A stretch of DNA of 64,000 nt from Thermoanaerobaculia bacterium (lineage in GTDB: Bacteria; Acidobacteriota; Thermoanaerobaculia; Multivoradales; JAGPDF01), in the NCBI GenBank assembly GCA_018057705.1, contig JAGPDF010000007.1, forward strand, positions 1,125 to 65,124, given 5' to 3'. Shown piece after piece: positions 2,093 to 43,943 of the stretch. The notes beneath the pieces are model-generated. The model saw only the letters and a program-made list of their open reading frames with translations. It had not been told where the DNA came from and searched no databases. The stretch's first letter is position 1, and each line of letters begins with the position of its first letter. The translations under genes were made by a program, and so were the position numbers.

Positions 2093-3196
2093 TCAGGTGG
2101 CAGCGACCTGTTCCGACTCGTCTTCGGCCTCGAGCGTCGGCGGCAGTCCGAAGGCGGCGAAGAGGTCGGGTCCGAAGGTGAGGATCTCTGCGATCGCCCC
2201 CTCCTCGATCCGCAGCACGTCCATCGCCAGCGCGTTCCAGGCGGGGTCGCCGGCGCGCCGGACGAAGGCCGCCACCGCCGGCAGTCCGTTGGCGCGCGTC
2301 GTCACGCAGCGCAGACGCCCGAACGCCTCCGTGCCGAATCCGGCGTCGACGAACATGCGGAGGATCGCGTCGCGGCCGGCGACGACCCCCACGTCCGGAT
2401 CCGGCGGCATCCGGAACAGCGCGTCCTCGCGGATCAGCGAGACGAGCATCGAAACGTCGGGCCGCTCGGCGGCCTCGACGTAGCGTCGCACCAGCTCGCG
2501 CTCGCCGTCCCCGGCGTCGACACCGGCCGGCCACGCCGGCCGGCGCGGTGGGAGCTCCTTCCGCAGCGTCGCGCGCGCCCGCTGCAGCGCGCTGTTCGCG
2601 GCGGCGACGGAGAGCTCGAGCAGATCGGCCGACTCCTTCGCGGACCAGCCGAGGACGTCGCGCAGGATCAGCGTCGCCCGTTGCAACGGAGGGAGCCGTT
2701 GGATCACGGTGAGGAAGGCGATCTCGATCGTCTCGCGGGTGAGTGCGAGGGCTTCGGGCTCCGAGTCGCGCGGCGCTATCGGATCGAGCGGTTCGAGAAG
2801 TGCGTCCGGGAACGGCTGGAGCCAGGCGATATCGGCAAGCGGGCCGGCGCCAGAAGCTCCGACTTCGGAGGAGGCCGCCAGCGCGGTTCTCCGGGGATCG
2901 CGTGCGATCGCGTCGAGGCAGGCGTTCGTGGCGATCCGGTAGAGCCAGGGGCGGAGCGGCAGGCCCTCCTTGACGCTCTCCCGATAACGCCAGGCGCGCA
3001 GGAACGTCTCCTGCACCGCGTCCTCGGCGTCAGAGAGAGAGCCGAGCATCCGATAGCAATGGACGAGCAGCTCGCGGCGGCGGCGCTCGACGAGCGCCGT
3101 GAAGGCCGTGGCGTCGCCGCTGCGGACGGCGCCCCCCAGCGCCGCGGTTTCGTCCGTCTCGTTCGGGGTCGTCTTTTCGTTCATTGCGCTTCCCAT
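2093..3196 (-). CDS. ECF-type RNA polymerase sigma factor with a ~170-aa C-terminal SnoaL/NTF2-like extension (ECF41/ECF56-like architecture).
   Basis: Region 2 ([17 protein letters not shown]...[17 protein letters not shown]) and region 4 ([39 protein letters not shown]); GGGAGGA RBS 5 nt upstream of the ATG at 3196; no adjacent anti-sigma gene. Confidence 0.85.
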
Positions 3197-3326
3197 TCTG
3201 TCCTCCCACGGCCCGGTGATCTACCTACGAGAGCTGATACCGCGAAAACCCTCGAAACTCATCGCCCGCACCGGGGAGCCGAAACTCCCGGTAGGCTCCG
3301 TCGCAGACAGGAAGGAGATCTCTCCG

Positions 3327-4028
3327 ATGACCGTTACCGAAGTCCTCGCGCTGCTCCACGCCGAACGAGACGAACGGGGCATGACGCACTGGGAGAAGCT
3401 GGGCTCGAGAACCGCGGGGATGAAGAGCTACGGCATCGGGCTCTCCCGGCTGCGCAAGCTGGCCAAGAAGATCGGACGCGATCGCGAGCTCGCGAAGGCG
3501 CTCTGGAGATCCGACGCCTACGACGCCAGGGTGATCGCGCTTCTGGTCGACGATCCCGCGCGCATCACACGGGAGCAGGCCGAGGAACAGGTCGAAGAGC
3601 TGGCCGGCGGCATGCTGGCGCACGTGTTCGCTTCGTGCGACGCGACGCTCGCGAAGTCGCCGTTCGCCGTCGAACTGGCCGACCAGTGGGTTCGGAGCGA
3701 AGACCCCGTGCGTCGCGATTGCGGCTATGGGCTGCTCTACGAGGCGTCCAAGCTCACCGGCAAGAAGGCGCCGACCGAGGCGTTCTTCCTCGCCCATGTC
3801 GAGCGCATCTCGATGCGGATCGCGACCGAACCGGAGAGTGTCCGCCTGGCTATGGGAGCGGCGCTGATGGGGATCGGCAAGCGGAGTGCCGTGTTGAACG
3901 CGGCGGCGCTTGCGGTCGCGCGCGCCGTGGGCCCGATCGAGTTCAGCTCCGCGAGCGGCGACTGCGAGCCGTTCGACGTTGTCAAGCATCTGACCAGCGA
4001 CCGGCTCAAAGAGAAGCTGGGGGTGTAG
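3327..4028 (+). CDS. alkD: DNA alkylation repair glycosylase (AlkD/AlkC-like HEAT-repeat protein).
   Basis: [72 protein letters not shown] is typical of the DNA_alkylation family; ATG at 3327 follows AGGAAGGAG; divergent from the sigma gene. Confidence 0.7.
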
Positions 4029-4288
4029 GGTCTGTTCGCCAACCTCACTGCGAGCGACGAGCTCCGCGGCTGGACGAACGCCGCGAGCAGGCGAGCCGCC
4101 ATGACCGCCGGGGGCGTCATGCACCTGGCGACGTCCCGGGCCTCGAGGGCGGCGAGCCGGTGGTCCGGCTCCTCCAGCTGCGAGGAATTTTCTCCAGGCA
4201 TAGAATCGCGTCGCCAGATCGGGGGCCCGTCGCGCTGCAAGTGGCGTCTGCGACCGAAGGGCCGCCCACAACTGAGCGAGGTGAGGCG

Positions 4289-4681
4289 ATGAAGCTGGAC
4301 CGGGTCTTCGCAATCAGGTTCGGCAGCGTCTACCCGCACTACGTTCAGAAGGCGGAGAAGAAGGACCGGACGAAGGAGGAGCTCGATCAGGTCCTCCGGT
4401 GGCTGACCGGCTACAGCCAGAAGCAGCTCGAAGAGCAGATCGAGCGCGGCGCAAGCCTCGAGATCTTCTTCGCCGAGGCTCCGGCCTTGCACCCGAACAG
4501 CTCGCTCATCCGCGGCGTCGTCTGCGGCATCCGCGTGGAGGATATCGAGGATCCCCTGATGCGGAAGATCCGCTACATGGACAAGCTGGTCGACGAGCTC
4601 GCCAAGGGAAAGGCGATGGAGAAGATCCTGCGGACGACCGGCGTGGGAGAGAGCGCGACGAAGGAGGTCACGACCCCATGA
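4289..4681 (+). CDS. Small conserved hypothetical protein (DUF2200-like), 130 aa.
   Basis: In-frame ATG at 4289 after GAGGTGAGG; well-conserved-looking globular sequence ([42 protein letters not shown]...); it is the tail of the artefactual 666-aa ORF 2681..4681. Confidence 0.5.
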
Positions 4682-4691
4682 GAGGAAGGAG

Positions 4692-6065
4692 ATGAGAGGT
4701 GGTTCGACTCGGGGGCGGCGATCCGCTACGACTCGCCTCGTACGGTGGGCCCTGGGGCTGCTGAGCGGCCTCTCTCCAGCGACCGCCCAGGTCTCGCCCG
4801 CTGACGAGCAGTTCCAGGTCAACCTCTTCACTACCAGCTACCAGGCGGTTCCCGAAGTCGCCAGCGACGGCTCGGGAAGGTTCGTCGTCGTCTGGGACAG
4901 CTACGGCTCGACTGGAGGGGATTCGAGCTCCTTCAGCATCCAGGCTCGGCGATTCGCTGCGGACGGCAGTCCCCTGGGCGGACAGTTCCAGATCAACTTC
5001 CACACCACCCTCGCGCAGGAGCATCCGAGCGTCGCGAGCGACAGCGACGGCAACTTCGTGGTCGTCTGGGACAGCAACAGCTCGACCGGGACCGATACCG
5101 ACGGACGGAGCGTGCACGGGCAGCGCTTCGGCGCGAATGGCGCGACGCTCGGCCCGCAGTTCCAGGTCAACCTCGTCACCTCGGGCACGCAAGCGAGCGC
5201 CGCCGTCGCGCGACACTCCCAGGGCAGCTTCGTCATCGTCTGGGAGAGCGCCAGTTCGTTCGGCACGGATACCACCGGTTACAGCATTCAGGCGCAGCGC
5301 TATTCCACCGCGGGAACGCCGCTCGGCGACCCGTTCCAGGTCAACTCCTACACGGCGGGAGACCAGCTCGCTCCCGACGTCGCGATCGACGGGCTCGGGA
5401 ACTTCGTCATCGCCTGGGCGAGCTATGGATCGGGCGGTGACGACACGAGCGGGGACAGCATCCAGGCGCGGCGCTTCGCCCCGGACGGCACGCCACTCGC
5501 TGAGGATTTCCAGGTCAACTCCTACACCACCGGCGTGCAGGGCCAGGCCGCCGTCAGCAGCGATGGCCTGGGAAACTTCGTGGTCGTCTGGACGAGCTCC
5601 GGCTCCGGCGGCACCGATACGTCGGAGTTCAGTGTTCAGGCGCAGCGTTTTGACGCCGTCGGCGACCCGCTCGGCGAAGAGTTTCAGGTCAACAGCCACA
5701 CTCCGAACAAGCAGCTCACGCCCGCCATCGCGAGCGACGCCGGCGGAAACCTCGTCATCGTCTGGGCGAGCGACAGCTCCGAGGGCGGCGACACGAATCT
5801 CCAGAGCATCCAGGCCCGGCGCTACGCGGCGAACGGCACCGCGCTCGACGATCAGTTCCAGGTCAACACCTACACGACCCAGCGCCAATGGACGCCCGCC
5901 GTCTCGAGCGACCCGCGCGGCAACTGGGTCGTCGCCTGGGACAGCACCGGCTCGAGCGGCACCGACACGGCCGGATCCAGCATCCAGGCGCAGCGCTACG
6001 ACGGGCTATTCCGCGATGACTTCGAAACCGGCGGCACCCTCCGCTGGTCTGCCAGCGCCCCCTAG
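4692..6065 (+). CDS. Secreted tandem-repeat protein: 7 x 58-aa repeats (likely a 7-bladed beta-propeller) followed by the conserved C-terminal tail ...LFRDDFETGGTLRWSASAP.
   Basis: Strong RBS AGAGGAAGGAG before the ATG at 4692. N-terminus has an RR-containing signal. Repeats of consensus [QE]FQVN.YTTG.Q..P.VA.D..GNFVVVW.S.GS.G.DT.G.SIQAQRF.A.G.PLG., exactly 174 nt apart. Confidence 0.75.
   Translation: MRGGSTRGRRSATTRLVRWALGLLSGLSPATAQVSPADEQFQVNLFTTSYQAVPEVASDGSGRFVVVWDSYGSTGGDSSSFSIQARRFAADGSPLGGQFQINFHTTLAQEHPSVASDSDGNFVVVWDSNSSTGTDTDGRSVHGQRFGANGATLGPQFQVNLVTSGTQASAAVARHSQGSFVIVWESASSFGTDTTGYSIQAQRYSTAGTPLGDPFQVNSYTAGDQLAPDVAIDGLGNFVIAWASYGSGGDDTSGDSIQARRFAPDGTPLAEDFQVNSYTTGVQGQAAVSSDGLGNFVVVWTSSGSGGTDTSEFSVQAQRFDAVGDPLGEEFQVNSHTPNKQLTPAIASDAGGNLVIVWASDSSEGGDTNLQSIQARRYAANGTALDDQFQVNTYTTQRQWTPAVSSDPRGNWVVAWDSTGSSGTDTAGSSIQAQRYDGLFRDDFETGGTLRWSASAP
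4809..6026 (+). repeat. Seven in-frame tandem coding repeats of 174 nt (58 aa) inside CDS 4692..6065.
   Basis: QFQVN/QFQIN/PFQVN/DFQVN/EFQVN repeat starts at 4809, 4983, 5157, 5331, 5505, 5679 and 5853. Confidence 0.8.
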
Positions 6066-6234
6066 GAGCCCGCGCGGTCCGGCGAGGCGCGACGCGAGGT
6101 GCTAACGCGAGGTGCCCGACTTCCGTCCCCGATGTCGAATTCTCGTCCGCCCGTTCGTCGAAGGTAGGAAGCCCGAGCGGCTCCCCACCCCCCTTGGGTG
6201 GGCGGCTCCGCCGGAATCCAACCCAGGAGGCACC

Positions 6235-6663
6235 ATGCGAGTGATGGTGATCGTGAAGGCGACGAAGGAGTCCGAGGAAGCGAACAGCCCTGTCGATGCG
6301 GAAGGCGCCGCGGCGATGTTCGAGGCGATGGGGAAGTACAACGAGGAGTTGATCCAGGCGGGGATCCTGCTCACCGGAGACGGGCTTCGACCGAGCAAGT
6401 TCGGGAGGCGGATCCACTTCAGCGGCACGAAGCGGTCGGTGACCGACGGCCCCTTCGCCGAGACCCGGGAGCTCGTGGCCGGGTTCTGGATCTGGCAGGT
6501 GCGCTCGATGGATGAGGCAGTCGAGTGGGCGAAGCGCTGCCCGAACCCGATGCCGGGGCCGAGCGACCTGGAGATCCGGCCCTTCTGGGAGGCCGAGGAC
6601 TTCGGGCCCGAGATCGCCGCAGAGGTCAACGCCCAGCGCGAGAAGCTCGGCAAGCGGAGCTGA
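6235..6663 (+). CDS. YciI-like / DGPF-domain protein (142 aa).
   Basis: Perfect RBS AGGAGG 5 nt before the ATG at 6235; ...YNEELIQAGILLTGDGLRPS...VTDGPFAETRELVAGFWIWQVRSMDEAVEWAKRCP is typical of the YCII-related family. Confidence 0.75.
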   Translation: MRVMVIVKATKESEEANSPVDAEGAAAMFEAMGKYNEELIQAGILLTGDGLRPSKFGRRIHFSGTKRSVTDGPFAETRELVAGFWIWQVRSMDEAVEWAKRCPNPMPGPSDLEIRPFWEAEDFGPEIAAEVNAQREKLGKRS

Positions 6664-9447: not shown

Positions 9448-10749
9448 TCAGGGGAAGGTCTGACTCCAGGCGGTGCTGTCGCCCGTGCCGAAGCCGTCCA
9501 CGAAGATCAGGTTCGTGTTGGTGAGGAACTCGACCTCGCCGGGCGTGCCGGCCTCGAAGAGCCCCAGGACATGGGTTTCGATCTCGGCCGGCGGCCGGTC
9601 GGCGTCGAACCAGAAGTTGTACATGTTGGCCCAGCGGATCGCATTGGCGTTCTCCGCCGGAGAGAACGCGGGCGAATCCCAGCTCACTTCGTCGACGGTG
9701 ACGGTGTTCCCCCAGTCAGCCGTGTCGTAGGGCTCGTTCGAGTGCGCGTTGACATCGTGGAAGCCGATGTTCTCGAAGGTCGTGGCCCCGAAGAAGCGGA
9801 TTGCCAGCCGATCCGCCGCGCGGGCGGAGTTCATGTTGTGGACGGCATACTCGTAGTGCCAGACACCGGCCGAAGGGTTGGTGACCTTGCGGGCGACATG
9901 GAAGCGCTCGACCGGCACCGACGGGACGTCGACGTTGAGCAGTTCCACCGTCGCATCGATCACCGGCCAGACTTCGATCGCCGACTTCTGACGCACCGTG
10001 CTGCCGACATTCTGCAGGTTGAAGCTGACGGCCTCGACGGAGACCTCACGGTACGAGGCGTTGTTGAGGCCGTTGCCGGACTGGGCGTCGTCGGGGGCGA
10101 TGTACTGACCCTCGATGAAATAGCGCGCCCCCGGGTTGAGCGCAGCGTCGAGGTCGGCCTCGGCGACGGCGGCGCGCTGGTTCCAGATCGTAGCCGTGCT
10201 GCCGCCGCCGCCCTCTGGGAAGGGGAAGACTCCGGTCGTCGGGTTGACTTCGGACTTCCGTCCCATCGGGCGGCCGCCGTTGAGGCTCGACGAGTAGGGG
10301 TCGGTGCAACCGACGCCCAGCTGATTGCCGCCCAGCGGTGGAGCGGCGCAACTGCCGTCGCCGCAGCCGCCGGCGCTCTGGTTGAGCGAAATGAAGCCGT
10401 GCTTCAGCCAGCTGGCGCCGATCTGGTCGAAGCGTCCGTTCTTCAGCCGGTAGATGTTCTGACCGATCACCGGGTGATCGGAGCTGGTGGTCCCGCTGCC
10501 GCAACCGCCATTGACGTCGCACCAGTTGAGCGGCGTGTCGCCGATGTTGCAGGAGGTCGTGCCTACCGAATAGCCGCGGATGCCTCCGGACGCGCCCCAG
10601 TTGGTCGTTCCAGGCAGTTCGTAGACGGTGACGTCCGCCCCGGTGGAGCCGGCCGCTGCGGCTTCGACCCCGAGGAGGGCCAACGTGCAAACCGCGAAGA
10701 GCGCAAGAGTGGTACGAACAGGCAGGTTGCGAACGATTCGATTGTGCAT
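9448..10749 (-). CDS. Secreted protein of unknown function (433 aa), Cys/Gly-rich N-terminal region, ending in the conserved C-terminal tail ...IFVDGFGTGDSTAWSQTFP.
   Basis: Signal peptide MHNRIVRNLPVRTTLALFAVCTLALLGVEAAAAG; GGAGAC RBS; no family recognised. Confidence 0.7.
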   Translation of the reverse strand: MHNRIVRNLPVRTTLALFAVCTLALLGVEAAAAGSTGADVTVYELPGTTNWGASGGIRGYSVGTTSCNIGDTPLNWCDVNGGCGSGTTSSDHPVIGQNIYRLKNGRFDQIGASWLKHGFISLNQSAGGCGDGSCAAPPLGGNQLGVGCTDPYSSSLNGGRPMGRKSEVNPTTGVFPFPEGGGGSTATIWNQRAAVAEADLDAALNPGARYFIEGQYIAPDDAQSGNGLNNASYREVSVEAVSFNLQNVGSTVRQKSAIEVWPVIDATVELLNVDVPSVPVERFHVARKVTNPSAGVWHYEYAVHNMNSARAADRLAIRFFGATTFENIGFHDVNAHSNEPYDTADWGNTVTVDEVSWDSPAFSPAENANAIRWANMYNFWFDADRPPAEIETHVLGLFEAGTPGEVEFLTNTNLIFVDGFGTGDSTAWSQTFP

Positions 10750-43385: not shown

Positions 43386-43943
43386 TCAGTTCGACCAGCT
43401 GTCGGTCGTGCCGCCTTCGAAACTGTCGGCGAACAGCGGCTCGGCCGGGCGTTGCACGGTGCTCATACGGTCGGCGGCTGCGACACCGGCAGACCCGGCG
43501 GGAAGCGGCGCCGTCCGGCCGAGATCCAGTCGCAAGCCGACACTGGCGGCGATCAGCAGCATCGCTGCCGCGGCGAAACCCAGCCAGCGGCGACTGGAGA
43601 ACGCGGCGAGCGCGGCGGACGCCGCCGGGGCGACCCGGCGCTCGGCGGGCACGACCTTCAACCGGTCGCGCAAGGCCACCAATTCGTCGAATTCACGCTG
43701 CAGCAGCGGATCGCCGGCGAGCCGGCTGGAGAAAAGCTCCGCTTCGACAGGGTCGAGTGTACCGTCCACCGCCGCCTCGAGCTGCTCGTACTCCGGCGAT
43801 TCCTCGTCGCGTTCGCCGCGCACCAGCAGGCCCTCGAACGCGACGGCCAGGTCGGCCTCGGCGCGAAGCGTCTCGTCCACCGGGGTCACCGGGCTGGACG
43901 GGAGGGCGGGAGTGGGCAGGAGTCGCAGGTTCGGACGGTTCAT
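43386..43943 (-). CDS. Anti-sigma factor (single TM) whose extracytoplasmic tail ends in the conserved C-terminal tag ...LFADSFEGGTTDSWSN.
   Basis: N-terminal anti-sigma-like helix (EYEQLEAAVDGTLDPVEAELFSSRLAGDPLLQREFDEL); TM WLGFAAAAMLLIAASVGL; sits 63 nt downstream of the ECF-like sigma gene. Confidence 0.55.
   Translation of the reverse strand: MNRPNLRLLPTPALPSSPVTPVDETLRAEADLAVAFEGLLVRGERDEESPEYEQLEAAVDGTLDPVEAELFSSRLAGDPLLQREFDELVALRDRLKVVPAERRVAPAASAALAAFSSRRWLGFAAAAMLLIAASVGLRLDLGRTAPLPAGSAGVAAADRMSTVQRPAEPLFADSFEGGTTDSWSN

What the first reader, a model, noticed from the sequence alone, without database searches (positions are those of the whole stretch)
4692..6065. Seven perfect-period 58-aa tandem repeats (probable 7-bladed beta-propeller) carrying the C-terminal tag
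Repeats start exactly every 174 nt (4809, 4983, 5157, 5331, 5505, 5679, 5853). The consensus is xFQVN.YTTG.Q..P.VA.D..GNFVVVW.S.GS.G.DTSG.SIQAQRF.A.G.PLG. Each copy has four beta-strand-like segments (FQVN, VA.D, FVVVW, SIQAQRF). Seven copies fit a propeller, with the 'FQVN' strand of the next repeat possibly closing each blade (velcro). The protein has an RR-containing signal peptide and ends in the shared tail. The repeat family is not one I can name with confidence.
Basis: seen in the sequence. Interest (0 to 1): 0.55.

Follow-up and report, generated by a model that had tools for sequence, protein, structure and literature searches.

The report
Secreted seven-bladed propeller with variable face
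The gene encodes a secreted protein of seven 58-residue repeats that almost certainly fold into a seven-bladed beta-propeller; it belongs to a very large family with no curated description and no known function, and its fast-changing upper face suggests a binding role.

Summary
ORF 4692-6065 (+) encodes 457 aa with seven in-register 58-aa repeats at exactly the stated coordinates. Mean pairwise identity is 51% against 7.7% after shuffling, and the DNA copies are only 60-70% identical.

The propeller reading is supported:
- An AlphaFold2 model (pLDDT 87, pTM 0.87) matches the seven-bladed propeller of CylK best (Foldseek E 2.6e-15, TM 0.71).
- 110 of 120 close homologues have exactly seven repeats.
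- Larger relatives mostly carry 14, 21, 28, 35 or 42 repeats.

No Pfam, NCBIfam or PDB sequence match reaches significance, and no paper was found. A single-repeat profile nevertheless finds 33,021 protein clusters.

All seven blades conserve the same framework positions, including a GxxGxD loop. About nine positions per blade on the inferred top face are hypervariable and rich in aromatic residues. Five tandem paralogues in another genome differ mainly at those positions.

The disordered C-terminal tail also ends two unrelated proteins in the window. In homologues it alternates with PEP-CTERM and IPTL-CTERM signals.

My best reading is a Sec-exported, envelope-targeted, non-enzymatic binding module. 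The fold is well supported. The function is inferred.

The parts
4682..4691 (+). Ribosome-binding-site-like GAGGAAGGAG directly before the ATG. The gene starts 11 nt after the stop of the upstream DUF2200 gene.
   Evidence: Sequence read; DUF2200 assignment.
4692..6065 (+). Whole coding sequence, 457 aa plus stop codon.
   Evidence: GC3 is 0.84 in this frame. There are more than 7,262 homologues in this frame.
4692..4787 (+). Signal peptide, residues 1-32 (MRGGSTRGRRSATTRLVRWALGLLSGLSPATA | QV). The cleavage site is inferred from the A-x-A rule.
   Evidence: A helix at residues 13-24 with low pLDDT in the model. Homologues have Sec-type signal peptides in the same place, followed directly by PxGxEFQVN. 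No signal-peptide predictor was available.
4797..4823 (+). N-terminal strand PADEQFQVN (residues 36-44), inferred to be the outer (fourth) strand of blade 7 that closes the ring.
   Evidence: DSSP bridges at residues 36 and 41-42 sit in the same register as in the inter-repeat segments. The hairpin argument comes from E198-204 and E210-216. This is an inference; coordinates were not inspected.
4809..4982 (+). Repeat 1 (58 aa).
4983..5156 (+). Repeat 2 (58 aa).
5157..5330 (+). Repeat 3 (58 aa).
5331..5504 (+). Repeat 4 (58 aa).
5505..5678 (+). Repeat 5 (58 aa).
5679..5852 (+). Repeat 6 (58 aa).
5853..5999 (+). Repeat 7, complete only to ...SIQAQRY (residue 436).
6000..6062 (+). C-terminal tail DGLFRDDFETGGTLRWSASAP, predicted to be disordered.
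   Evidence: pLDDT is 44-50 over the last 20 residues. 62 of 120 homologues end in the same motif.
9448..9510 (-). The same tail motif (LIFVDGFGTGDSTAWSQTFP*) at the end of an unrelated 433-aa secreted protein.
   Evidence: The tail is also disordered in that protein's model.
43386..43439 (-). The same tail motif (PLFADSFEGGTTDSWSN*) at the end of a 185-aa ORF with one hydrophobic stretch.
   Evidence: There is no Pfam match.

Best explanation
Shown here:
- The gene encodes a protein with an N-terminal signal peptide, seven 58-residue repeats and a short disordered C-terminal tail.
- The repeats are predicted with high confidence to form one closed seven-bladed beta-propeller.
- The propeller belongs to a very large family with no curated model. 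The module occurs once, or in multiples of seven blades, in secreted and surface proteins.

Inferred:
- Each blade is made of the strands PxVAxD, NFVVVW and SIQAQRF plus the FQVN strand of the next repeat. The N-terminal FQVN strand closes blade 7.
- One face (the conventional top face, carrying the FQVN-to-PxVA loops and the W-S-x-G-S-x-G-x-D loops) has a conserved polar framework in every blade: N5, T8, T9, Q12, S31 and a GxxGxD turn. This framework probably binds calcium, as in the CylK propeller and RTX turns.
- About nine hypervariable, Tyr/Phe/Arg/Trp-rich positions per blade are interleaved with that framework.
- The protein is therefore most likely a non-enzymatic extracellular binding module whose specificity is set by the variable top face.
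- It is exported by the Sec pathway. The C-terminal tail then directs it to, or holds it at, the cell envelope, taking the place that PEP-CTERM or IPTL-CTERM signals hold in homologues.
- The ligand is unknown.
For: Repeats and significance.

Fold:
- AlphaFold2 gives pLDDT 87.3 and pTM 0.87, with three long strands and one short strand per repeat.
- The best Foldseek match is CylK's seven-bladed propeller (E 2.6e-15, TMq 0.71). All other significant matches are propellers.
- The CylK propeller has long internal loops and a calcium site at each blade junction (PMC8916777).

Repeat number:
- 110 of 120 close homologues have 7 repeats.
- 87 of the 150 best relatives have a multiple of 7.

Secretion and surface location:
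- Homologues have Sec-type signal peptides.
- Partner domains are SdrD_B, DUF11 and RTX.
- C-termini include PEP-CTERM-like and IPTL-CTERM ends, and some that look like T9SS or T1SS ends by eye.

Against a single conserved active site:
- The conserved columns are the same in all seven blades, with no blade-specific invariant residues.
- Same-numbered blades of homologues are no more alike than different-numbered blades (0.503 against 0.500).

Variable face:
- Repeat positions 10, 11, 13, 14, 30, 32, 35, 41 and 42 have entropy above 3 bits.
- Tyr makes up 9.9% of these positions, against 0.2% at the variable positions of the other face.
- Among five tandem paralogues (L004), which have nearly identical signal peptides and tails, these positions carry 3.1-4.4 different residues out of 5, and most framework positions 1.0-1.4.
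- By Nei-Gojobori, dN/dS is 1.28 at these positions and 0.35 at the remaining positions.

Tail: it is disordered in two unrelated models and is shared by unrelated proteins.
Against: - There is no experimental datum for any member. No paper was found.
- I could not inspect model coordinates. Ring closure, blade composition, the assignment of loops to faces and any calcium site are therefore inferred from DSSP and topology rules.
- The dN/dS contrast is biased. The positions were chosen for being variable, pS is also raised at them (0.54 against 0.25), and pN is near saturation.
- Between the window protein and its 88-90% identical relatives, substitutions are only mildly enriched at the variable positions (26-30% against 17% expected).
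- Gene neighbourhoods are not conserved and give no functional hint.
- Nothing shows that the tail is a sorting signal. It has no hydrophobic segment, and no cognate machinery was identified.
Confidence: 0.5

Rival explanations
1. It is an extracellular enzyme, such as a polysaccharide lyase, glycosidase or alkyl-transferase-like catalyst, that uses the top face or central channel of the propeller.
For: The structural neighbours are mostly enzymes: CylK, the PL42 rhamnose-glucuronate lyase 7esn, GH93 arabinofuranosidase, sialidases and GH43. There is a weak PDB sequence hit to a GH43 endo-arabinase (E 0.5).
Against: No blade-specific conserved residues exist. The invariant columns are repeat-framework positions present in all blades, and blades have no positional orthology. 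CylK needs a second, N-terminal domain that supplies Arg105 at the active site, and that domain is absent here. The positions facing the putative active face are the most variable in the family.
Confidence: 0.15
2. It is a structural envelope or surface-layer component with no specific ligand. The variable positions would then simply be unconstrained surface, perhaps varied to escape phages or predators that use the protein as a receptor.
For: The family is very abundant, and the modules are strung into giant proteins of up to 68 blades. There are tandem paralogue arrays and anchoring-type C-termini. Variability without a known ligand also fits antigenic or receptor variation.
Against: The variable positions are enriched in Tyr, Phe, Trp and Arg, and not in small polar residues as on the other face. 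That is more typical of binding surfaces than of unconstrained loops. This is indirect evidence.
Confidence: 0.2
3. It is a Tat-exported, cofactor-bearing periplasmic propeller, as NosZ and quinoprotein dehydrogenases are.
For: The signal peptide contains a twin arginine (GRRSATT).
Against: The residues after RR do not fit the S/T-R-R-x-F-L-K pattern. RR is absent from most homologues' signal peptides. No His or Cys ligand set is conserved: the alignment has almost no Cys or His at conserved columns. No Pfam cofactor-propeller family matches.
Confidence: 0.04
4. It is not a real gene: a chance ORF in GC-rich DNA, or an assembly artefact that creates the repeats.
For: At 69.6% GC the region has long ORFs in several frames, including 4668-5888 (-).
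Against: Thousands of homologues exist in this frame, and an identical protein occurs in an independent assembly (P0001). GC3 is 0.84. A ribosome-binding site is present. The repeats are diverged at the DNA level.
Confidence: 0.01

Closest known systems
C-terminal seven-bladed beta-propeller domain of CylK / BrtB (cyanobacterial alkyl-halide alkylating enzymes; PDB 7RON, 7FH6)
   Same: It is the best structural match (Foldseek E 2.6e-15, TMq 0.71, about 430 aligned columns). Both have seven long blades of about 60 residues. The CylK propeller has long internal top-face loops and a calcium site at each blade junction (PMC8916777). Some relatives of the window protein are fused to RTX calcium-binding repeats (P0069), the same pair of folds as in CylK.
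   Different: Identity in the structural alignment is only 17%, and profile searches find no sequence match. The window protein has no N-terminal beta-roll domain, which in CylK supplies half of the active site. Where RTX repeats occur in relatives they lie C-terminal to the propeller. No blade-specific conserved residues correspond to a catalytic site. CylK and BrtB are annotated with NHL repeats (PMC7081238), and Pfam finds none here.
Multivalent lectin-type propellers with near-identical blades, such as tachylectin-2 and Psathyrella velutina lectin (from my own knowledge, not tested here)
   Same: Internal sequence symmetry is high, and the same framework is conserved in each blade. Both are secreted, non-enzymatic and involve calcium.
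   Different: No sequence or top structural match to these was seen (one search lists none among the first 50). In lectin propellers the binding residues are conserved from blade to blade. Here the face residues are the most variable positions.
RTX nonapeptide calcium-binding turn (GGxGxD / GxxGxD)
   Same: Each blade has G33-S34-x-G36-x-D38 in the loop after the FVVVW strand. D38 is 89-95% conserved in every blade. The motif fits the GxxGxD turn as described in PMC8916777.
   Different: There is one isolated turn per blade inside a propeller loop, not a stacked beta-roll. Pfam HemolysinCabind does not match this protein. Calcium binding was not tested.
PEP-CTERM / IPTL-CTERM (exosortase-type) and other 'choice-of-anchor' surface proteins
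   Same: Homologues of this propeller carry PEP-CTERM-like (9 of 120) or IPTL-CTERM (2 of 120) ends exactly where this protein carries its tail. The module is therefore combined with alternative C-terminal signals.
   Different: The tail here (LFRDDFETGGTLRWSASAP) has no transmembrane stretch and no basic cluster. No NCBIfam model matches it. Many members of a second family end in a short form...LFxNGFE*.
NCBIfam NF053835, PDIAV motif-containing lipoprotein
   Same: It is the only NCBIfam model with any hit (E 3e-4 over residues 326-413). The model is 458 positions long, similar to this protein, and is named after a PDIAV motif that resembles PDVAI/PAVAS here.
   Different: The score is 20.2 bits against a cut-off of 90. 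This signal peptide has no lipobox cysteine.

Membership tests
Beta-propeller fold, seven blades | Four-stranded antiparallel blades arranged in a closed ring | tested here: met
   AlphaFold2 gives pLDDT 87.3 and pTM 0.87, with four strand segments per repeat. All top Foldseek matches are propellers, and the best is seven-bladed CylK at TMq 0.71.
Beta-propeller fold, seven blades | Repeat number fixed by ring closure (7 or multiples of 7) | tested here: met
   110 of 120 close homologues have 7 repeats, and two have 14. 87 of the 150 best relatives have a multiple of 7.
Beta-propeller fold, seven blades | Velcro closure: the last blade is completed by a strand from the other terminus | tested here: inconclusive
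   Inferred from the 5-residue turn between SIQAQRF and PLGxEFQVN (E198-204, E210-216) and from N-terminal bridges at residues 36 and 41-42. Model coordinates could not be read.
CylK / BrtB alkylating enzymes | N-terminal calcium-binding beta-roll domain fused to the propeller (both are needed for catalysis) | tested here: not met
   The propeller starts about 7 residues after the signal peptide. There is no HemolysinCabind match.
CylK / BrtB alkylating enzymes | Detectable sequence similarity to CylK or BrtB (the authors used more than 24% identity) | tested here: not met
   Neither phmmer nor profile searches of the PDB find a CylK hit at E <= 10 or E <= 1. Identity in the structural alignment is 17%.
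CylK / BrtB alkylating enzymes | Catalytic residues Arg105, Tyr473 and Asp440 | not tested
   No residue-level structural alignment was available. Arg105 lies in the domain that is absent here.
Curated propeller repeat families in Pfam (WD40, Kelch, NHL, FG-GAP/VCBS, BNR, PQQ, LVIVD, SBBP and others) | Match to the family HMM at or above the gathering score | tested here: not met
   At E <= 10, hmmscan returns only three sub-threshold unrelated families (bacHORMA_1, DUF1990, CopC). Precomputed Pfam hits on homologues are scattered and faint.
NF053835 PDIAV motif-containing lipoprotein | Score of at least 90 bits, and a lipoprotein signal peptide | tested here: not met
   The score is 20.2 bits. 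There is no Cys in or after the signal peptide.
Tat (twin-arginine) substrates | An S/T-R-R-x-F-L-K motif, conserved among orthologues | tested here: not met
   RR is present but is followed by SATTRL. Most homologues lack RR. No dedicated predictor was available.
PEP-CTERM / exosortase substrates | C-terminal PEP motif, transmembrane helix and basic cluster | tested here: not met
   The tail DGLFRDDFETGGTLRWSASAP has none of these. The feature is met in 9 of 120 homologues.
NCBIfam 'choice-of-anchor' domains | Match to a choice-of-anchor HMM | tested here: not met
   There is no such hit at E <= 10. The behaviour (one module combined with alternative C-terminal signals) is nevertheless observed.

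The most novel reading that the evidence does not exclude
The propeller may be a natural hypervariable binding scaffold. It would have a calcium-stabilised seven-fold framework that displays about 63 fast-evolving, aromatic-rich residues on one face. The scaffold would be multiplied into tandem paralogue arrays and giant multi-propeller proteins. It would be delivered to the cell surface by a previously undescribed short C-terminal signal, [LIV]F-x-[DN]-G-F-E, optionally followed by x-G-D-T-S-x-W-S-x-x-V-P. That signal lacks a membrane anchor, is interchangeable with PEP-CTERM and IPTL-CTERM, and is shared by unrelated secreted proteins and by a small membrane protein in the same genome.
Probability: 0.3. 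Interest if true: 0.65.

Novelty: new variant of a known kind. Interest (0 to 1): 0.42.

Why it matters
- A repeat module found in about 33,000 protein clusters at 50% identity, including proteins of nearly 8,000 residues, has no curated family model, no solved structure and no literature. Naming it and giving it a fold would annotate a large block of 'hypothetical' secreted proteins in Acidobacteriota, Planctomycetota and other environmental phyla.
- The pattern of a conserved framework with a hypervariable top face, seen most clearly in tandem paralogue arrays, points to a diversified recognition surface. If so, these proteins would take part in how such bacteria recognise polymers, surfaces or other cells.
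- The shared C-terminal tail sits where known sorting signals sit in homologues. It is a candidate for an undescribed envelope-targeting signal, which could be tested by proteomics and genetics.

Tried and rejected

Searches that gave little:
- With the single protein, the search for related loci returned only three distant loci in GTDB genomes: one Wenzhouxiangella and two Planctomycetaceae. The source organism itself was not recovered this way.
- Profile searches of the PDB with the whole-protein and the single-repeat alignments found nothing.
- Literature searches for FQVNTYTT, DGFESG, PDIAV, GNFVVVW and choice-of-anchor plus PEP-CTERM found nothing relevant.
- My last homologous-protein search used an artificial 40-aa double-tail query, intended to list all tail-bearing families. 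It returned only 45 short fragments and was uninformative.
- Scanning bare tails against NCBIfam gave no model.
- Gene context in four other genomes shows no conserved neighbour.

Readings considered and dropped:
- I read ORF 43386-43943 (-) and the ORF upstream of it as an anti-sigma/sigma pair. Pfam gives no support, so I do not assert it.
- Tat export, enzyme and artefact readings were considered and marked down. The reasons are given under the rival explanations.

Full report
**1. Observation**

ORF 4692-6065 (+) starts with ATG and encodes 457 aa. It is preceded by GAGGAAGGAG and begins 11 nt after the stop of a DUF2200 gene.

Translating 174-nt units from 4809, 4983, 5157, 5331, 5505, 5679 and 5853 gives seven 58-aa repeats that align without gaps. 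Pairwise identity is 43-60% for protein and 60-70% for DNA. Mean protein identity is 0.506, against 0.077 +/- 0.008 in 2000 shuffles. Self-identity peaks only at lags 58 and 116.

Tandem Repeats Finder finds no DNA-level array. An identical protein exists in an independent assembly (P0001). The repeats are therefore real, old and not an artefact.

The seventh repeat ends at ...SIQAQRY (residue 436). It is followed by the tail DGLFRDDFETGGTLRWSASAP*.

A neighbouring gene is 100% identical to a protein of a Thermoanaerobaculia (Acidobacteriota) metagenome-assembled genome. That sets the likely source. The window has 69.6% GC.

**2. Fold**

An AlphaFold2 model built on 67 homologues has pLDDT 87.3 and pTM 0.87. 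It is all-beta, with strands on PxVAxD, NFVVVW and SIQAQRF and a short strand on FQVN in every repeat.

Foldseek against the PDB returns only propellers. The best matches are the five CylK entries (E 2.6e-15 to 1.8e-14, TMq 0.70-0.72, 17% identity). The next matches drop to TMq about 0.55 or below. CylK's C-terminal domain is a seven-bladed propeller with unusually long internal top-face loops and a calcium site at each blade junction (PMC8916777).

Repeat counts give evidence that does not depend on the model. A profile of the seven window repeats finds exactly seven copies in 110 of the 120 closest homologues and 14 in two; most of the others begin or end inside a repeat and look like fragments.

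The same single-repeat profile, run against 1.84 billion representative proteins, finds 33,021 clusters at E <= 1e-3 and 9,045 at E <= 1e-30. Among the 150 best, 87 have a multiple of seven copies (14, 21, 28, 35, 42, 49, 56). A remainder of six, which is one copy missed, is the next most common class.

The window itself holds no second gene with the repeat.

**3. Blade anatomy (inferred)**

In the model, SIQAQRF (E198-204) and the following PLGDPFQ (E210-216) are joined by a five-residue turn. They should therefore be neighbours in one sheet.

A blade is then PxVAxD (inner strand), NFVVVW, SIQAQRF and the FQVN strand of the next repeat (outer strand). The N-terminal PADEQFQVN (residues 36-44) would complete blade 7. 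I could not read coordinates, so it remains an inference.

With this order, the FQVN-to-PxVA loop and the loop after FVVVW lie on the same face. That is the conventional top face.

**4. What is conserved and what varies**

Across the 67 homologues the conserved columns are the same in all seven blades: F2, Q3, V4, N5, T8, Q12, V17, A18, G23, F25, V26, V27, W29, S31, S34, G36, D38, S43, R48, G53 and G57. No invariant column is specific to one blade.

Same-numbered blades of homologues are no more alike than different-numbered ones (0.503 against 0.500). A query blade finds its best match in the same-numbered blade in only 82 of 448 cases. A family built round one asymmetric active site would not look like this.

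G33-S34-x-G36-x-D38 fits the GxxGxD calcium-binding turn.

Repeat positions 10, 11, 13, 14, 30, 32, 35, 41 and 42 exceed 3 bits of entropy. All lie on the inferred top face. They are rich in Tyr, Phe, Arg, Trp and His: Tyr is 9.9%, against 0.2% at the variable positions of the other face.

On a 1.67-Mb metagenomic contig (L004), five paralogues of about 452 aa sit in tandem. They are 65-76% identical overall. Signal peptides are nearly identical in three of the five, and tails are nearly identical in all five.

At the nine top-face positions these paralogues carry 3.1-4.4 different residues out of five. Most framework positions carry 1.0-1.4. Nei-Gojobori estimates give dN/dS of 1.28 at the top-face positions, 0.68 at the variable positions of the other face and 0.35 elsewhere.

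These ratios have caveats. The positions were chosen for variability, pS is also raised there, and pN is near saturation. Between the window protein and its 88-90% relatives the enrichment is mild.

**5. Location and partners**

Homologues begin with ordinary Sec-type signal peptides followed at once by PxGxEFQVN. The RR of the window protein is not conserved.

Longer relatives add SdrD B-like, DUF11 or RTX domains.

The C-termini of the 120 closest relatives fall into these classes:
- 62 end in the LFxDGFESGDTSxWSxxVP tail.
- 9 are PEP-CTERM-like.
- 2 are IPTL-CTERM.
- 7 end in PVELxxFxVE.
- 13 have an extra domain, most ending in APAPxxCP.

Giant relatives have other ends, some of which look like T9SS or T1SS signals by eye. 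Everything points to an extracellular or surface location.

Gene neighbourhoods are not conserved.

**6. The tail**

The last about 20 residues are disordered in the model.

The same motif ends an unrelated 433-aa secreted protein at 9448-10749 (-). Its model (pLDDT 82.8) is made of beta-sandwich domains with no close PDB relative, and its tail is also disordered. Homologues of that protein end either in the full tail or in a short form...LFxNGFE*.

A 185-aa ORF at 43386-43943 (-) has one hydrophobic stretch and ends in LFADSFEGGTTDSWSN*.

No NCBIfam model or paper covers the motif.

**7. Comparison and verdict**

The protein is not a member of any curated propeller repeat family in Pfam, of NF053835, of the CylK/BrtB enzymes, of Tat substrates or of PEP-CTERM substrates. 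In each case a defining feature was tested and not met.

It works most like a secreted top-face-binding propeller. Structurally it is closest to the CylK propeller.

The function (a binding module with a variable face, probably calcium-stabilised, sorted by the tail) is my inference, at about even odds.

This is a new sequence family within a well-known fold. I rate the interest as moderate.

Noticed in passing
window 9448-10749 (-): A 433-aa secreted protein with no Pfam match ends in the same tail (IFVDGFGTGDSTAWSQTFP*). It is 100% identical to KBF21_08730 of a Thermoanaerobaculia MAG. Its homologues end either in the full tail or in a short form, ...LFxNGFE*, so the core of the motif may be LFx[DN]GFE. 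Its model is beta-sandwich and adhesin-like, with no close PDB fold.
   Followed up: partly
window 43386-43943 (-): A 185-aa ORF has one hydrophobic (membrane-like) stretch and a short C-terminal part ending in LFADSFEGGTTDSWSN*. The ORF upstream of it ends in a sequence that looked sigma-factor-like to me, which would make this an anti-sigma factor carrying the tag. Pfam supports neither reading.
   Followed up: partly
L004 2085-9356 (ENA ERZ25039495 contig_30979): Five tandem paralogues of the propeller gene, plus a 134-aa fragment, are separated by spacers of 96-124 nt. Signal peptides are nearly identical in three of the five and tails in all five, while the cores are 65-76% identical. The differences are concentrated at about nine positions per blade.
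   Followed up: yes
L002 and L003 (Planctomycetaceae MAGs); P0121-P0269: The same repeat is strung into giant proteins of up to 7,923 aa with up to 68 repeat copies, mostly in multiples of seven. Some of their C-termini look like T1SS, T9SS or membrane-anchor ends by eye.
   Followed up: partly
homologues P0019, P0031, P0042, P0063, P0083, P0104, P0111 and P0005, P0009, P0033, P0045 and others: Two further recurrent C-terminal endings match no NCBIfam model that I could find. One is ...PVELxxFxVE* directly after the last blade. The other is an extra domain of about 170 aa ending in ...APAPxxCP*.
   Followed up: no
window 4283-4681 (+) and 6112-6663 (+): The propeller gene lies between a DUF2200 gene, whose stop is 11 nt before the propeller start (possible co-transcription), and a YCII-domain gene. 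A DNA-alkylation-repair-like gene (3099-4028) and an ECF-type sigma factor fused to a SnoaL-like domain (2093-3196, -) lie nearby. None of these recurs next to homologues.
   Followed up: partly
alignment A1 (window protein plus 66 homologues): Blades have no positional orthology. Blade i of one protein is no closer to blade i of a 50%-identical homologue than to any other blade (0.503 against 0.500). All the shared identity is therefore repeat framework.
   Followed up: yes
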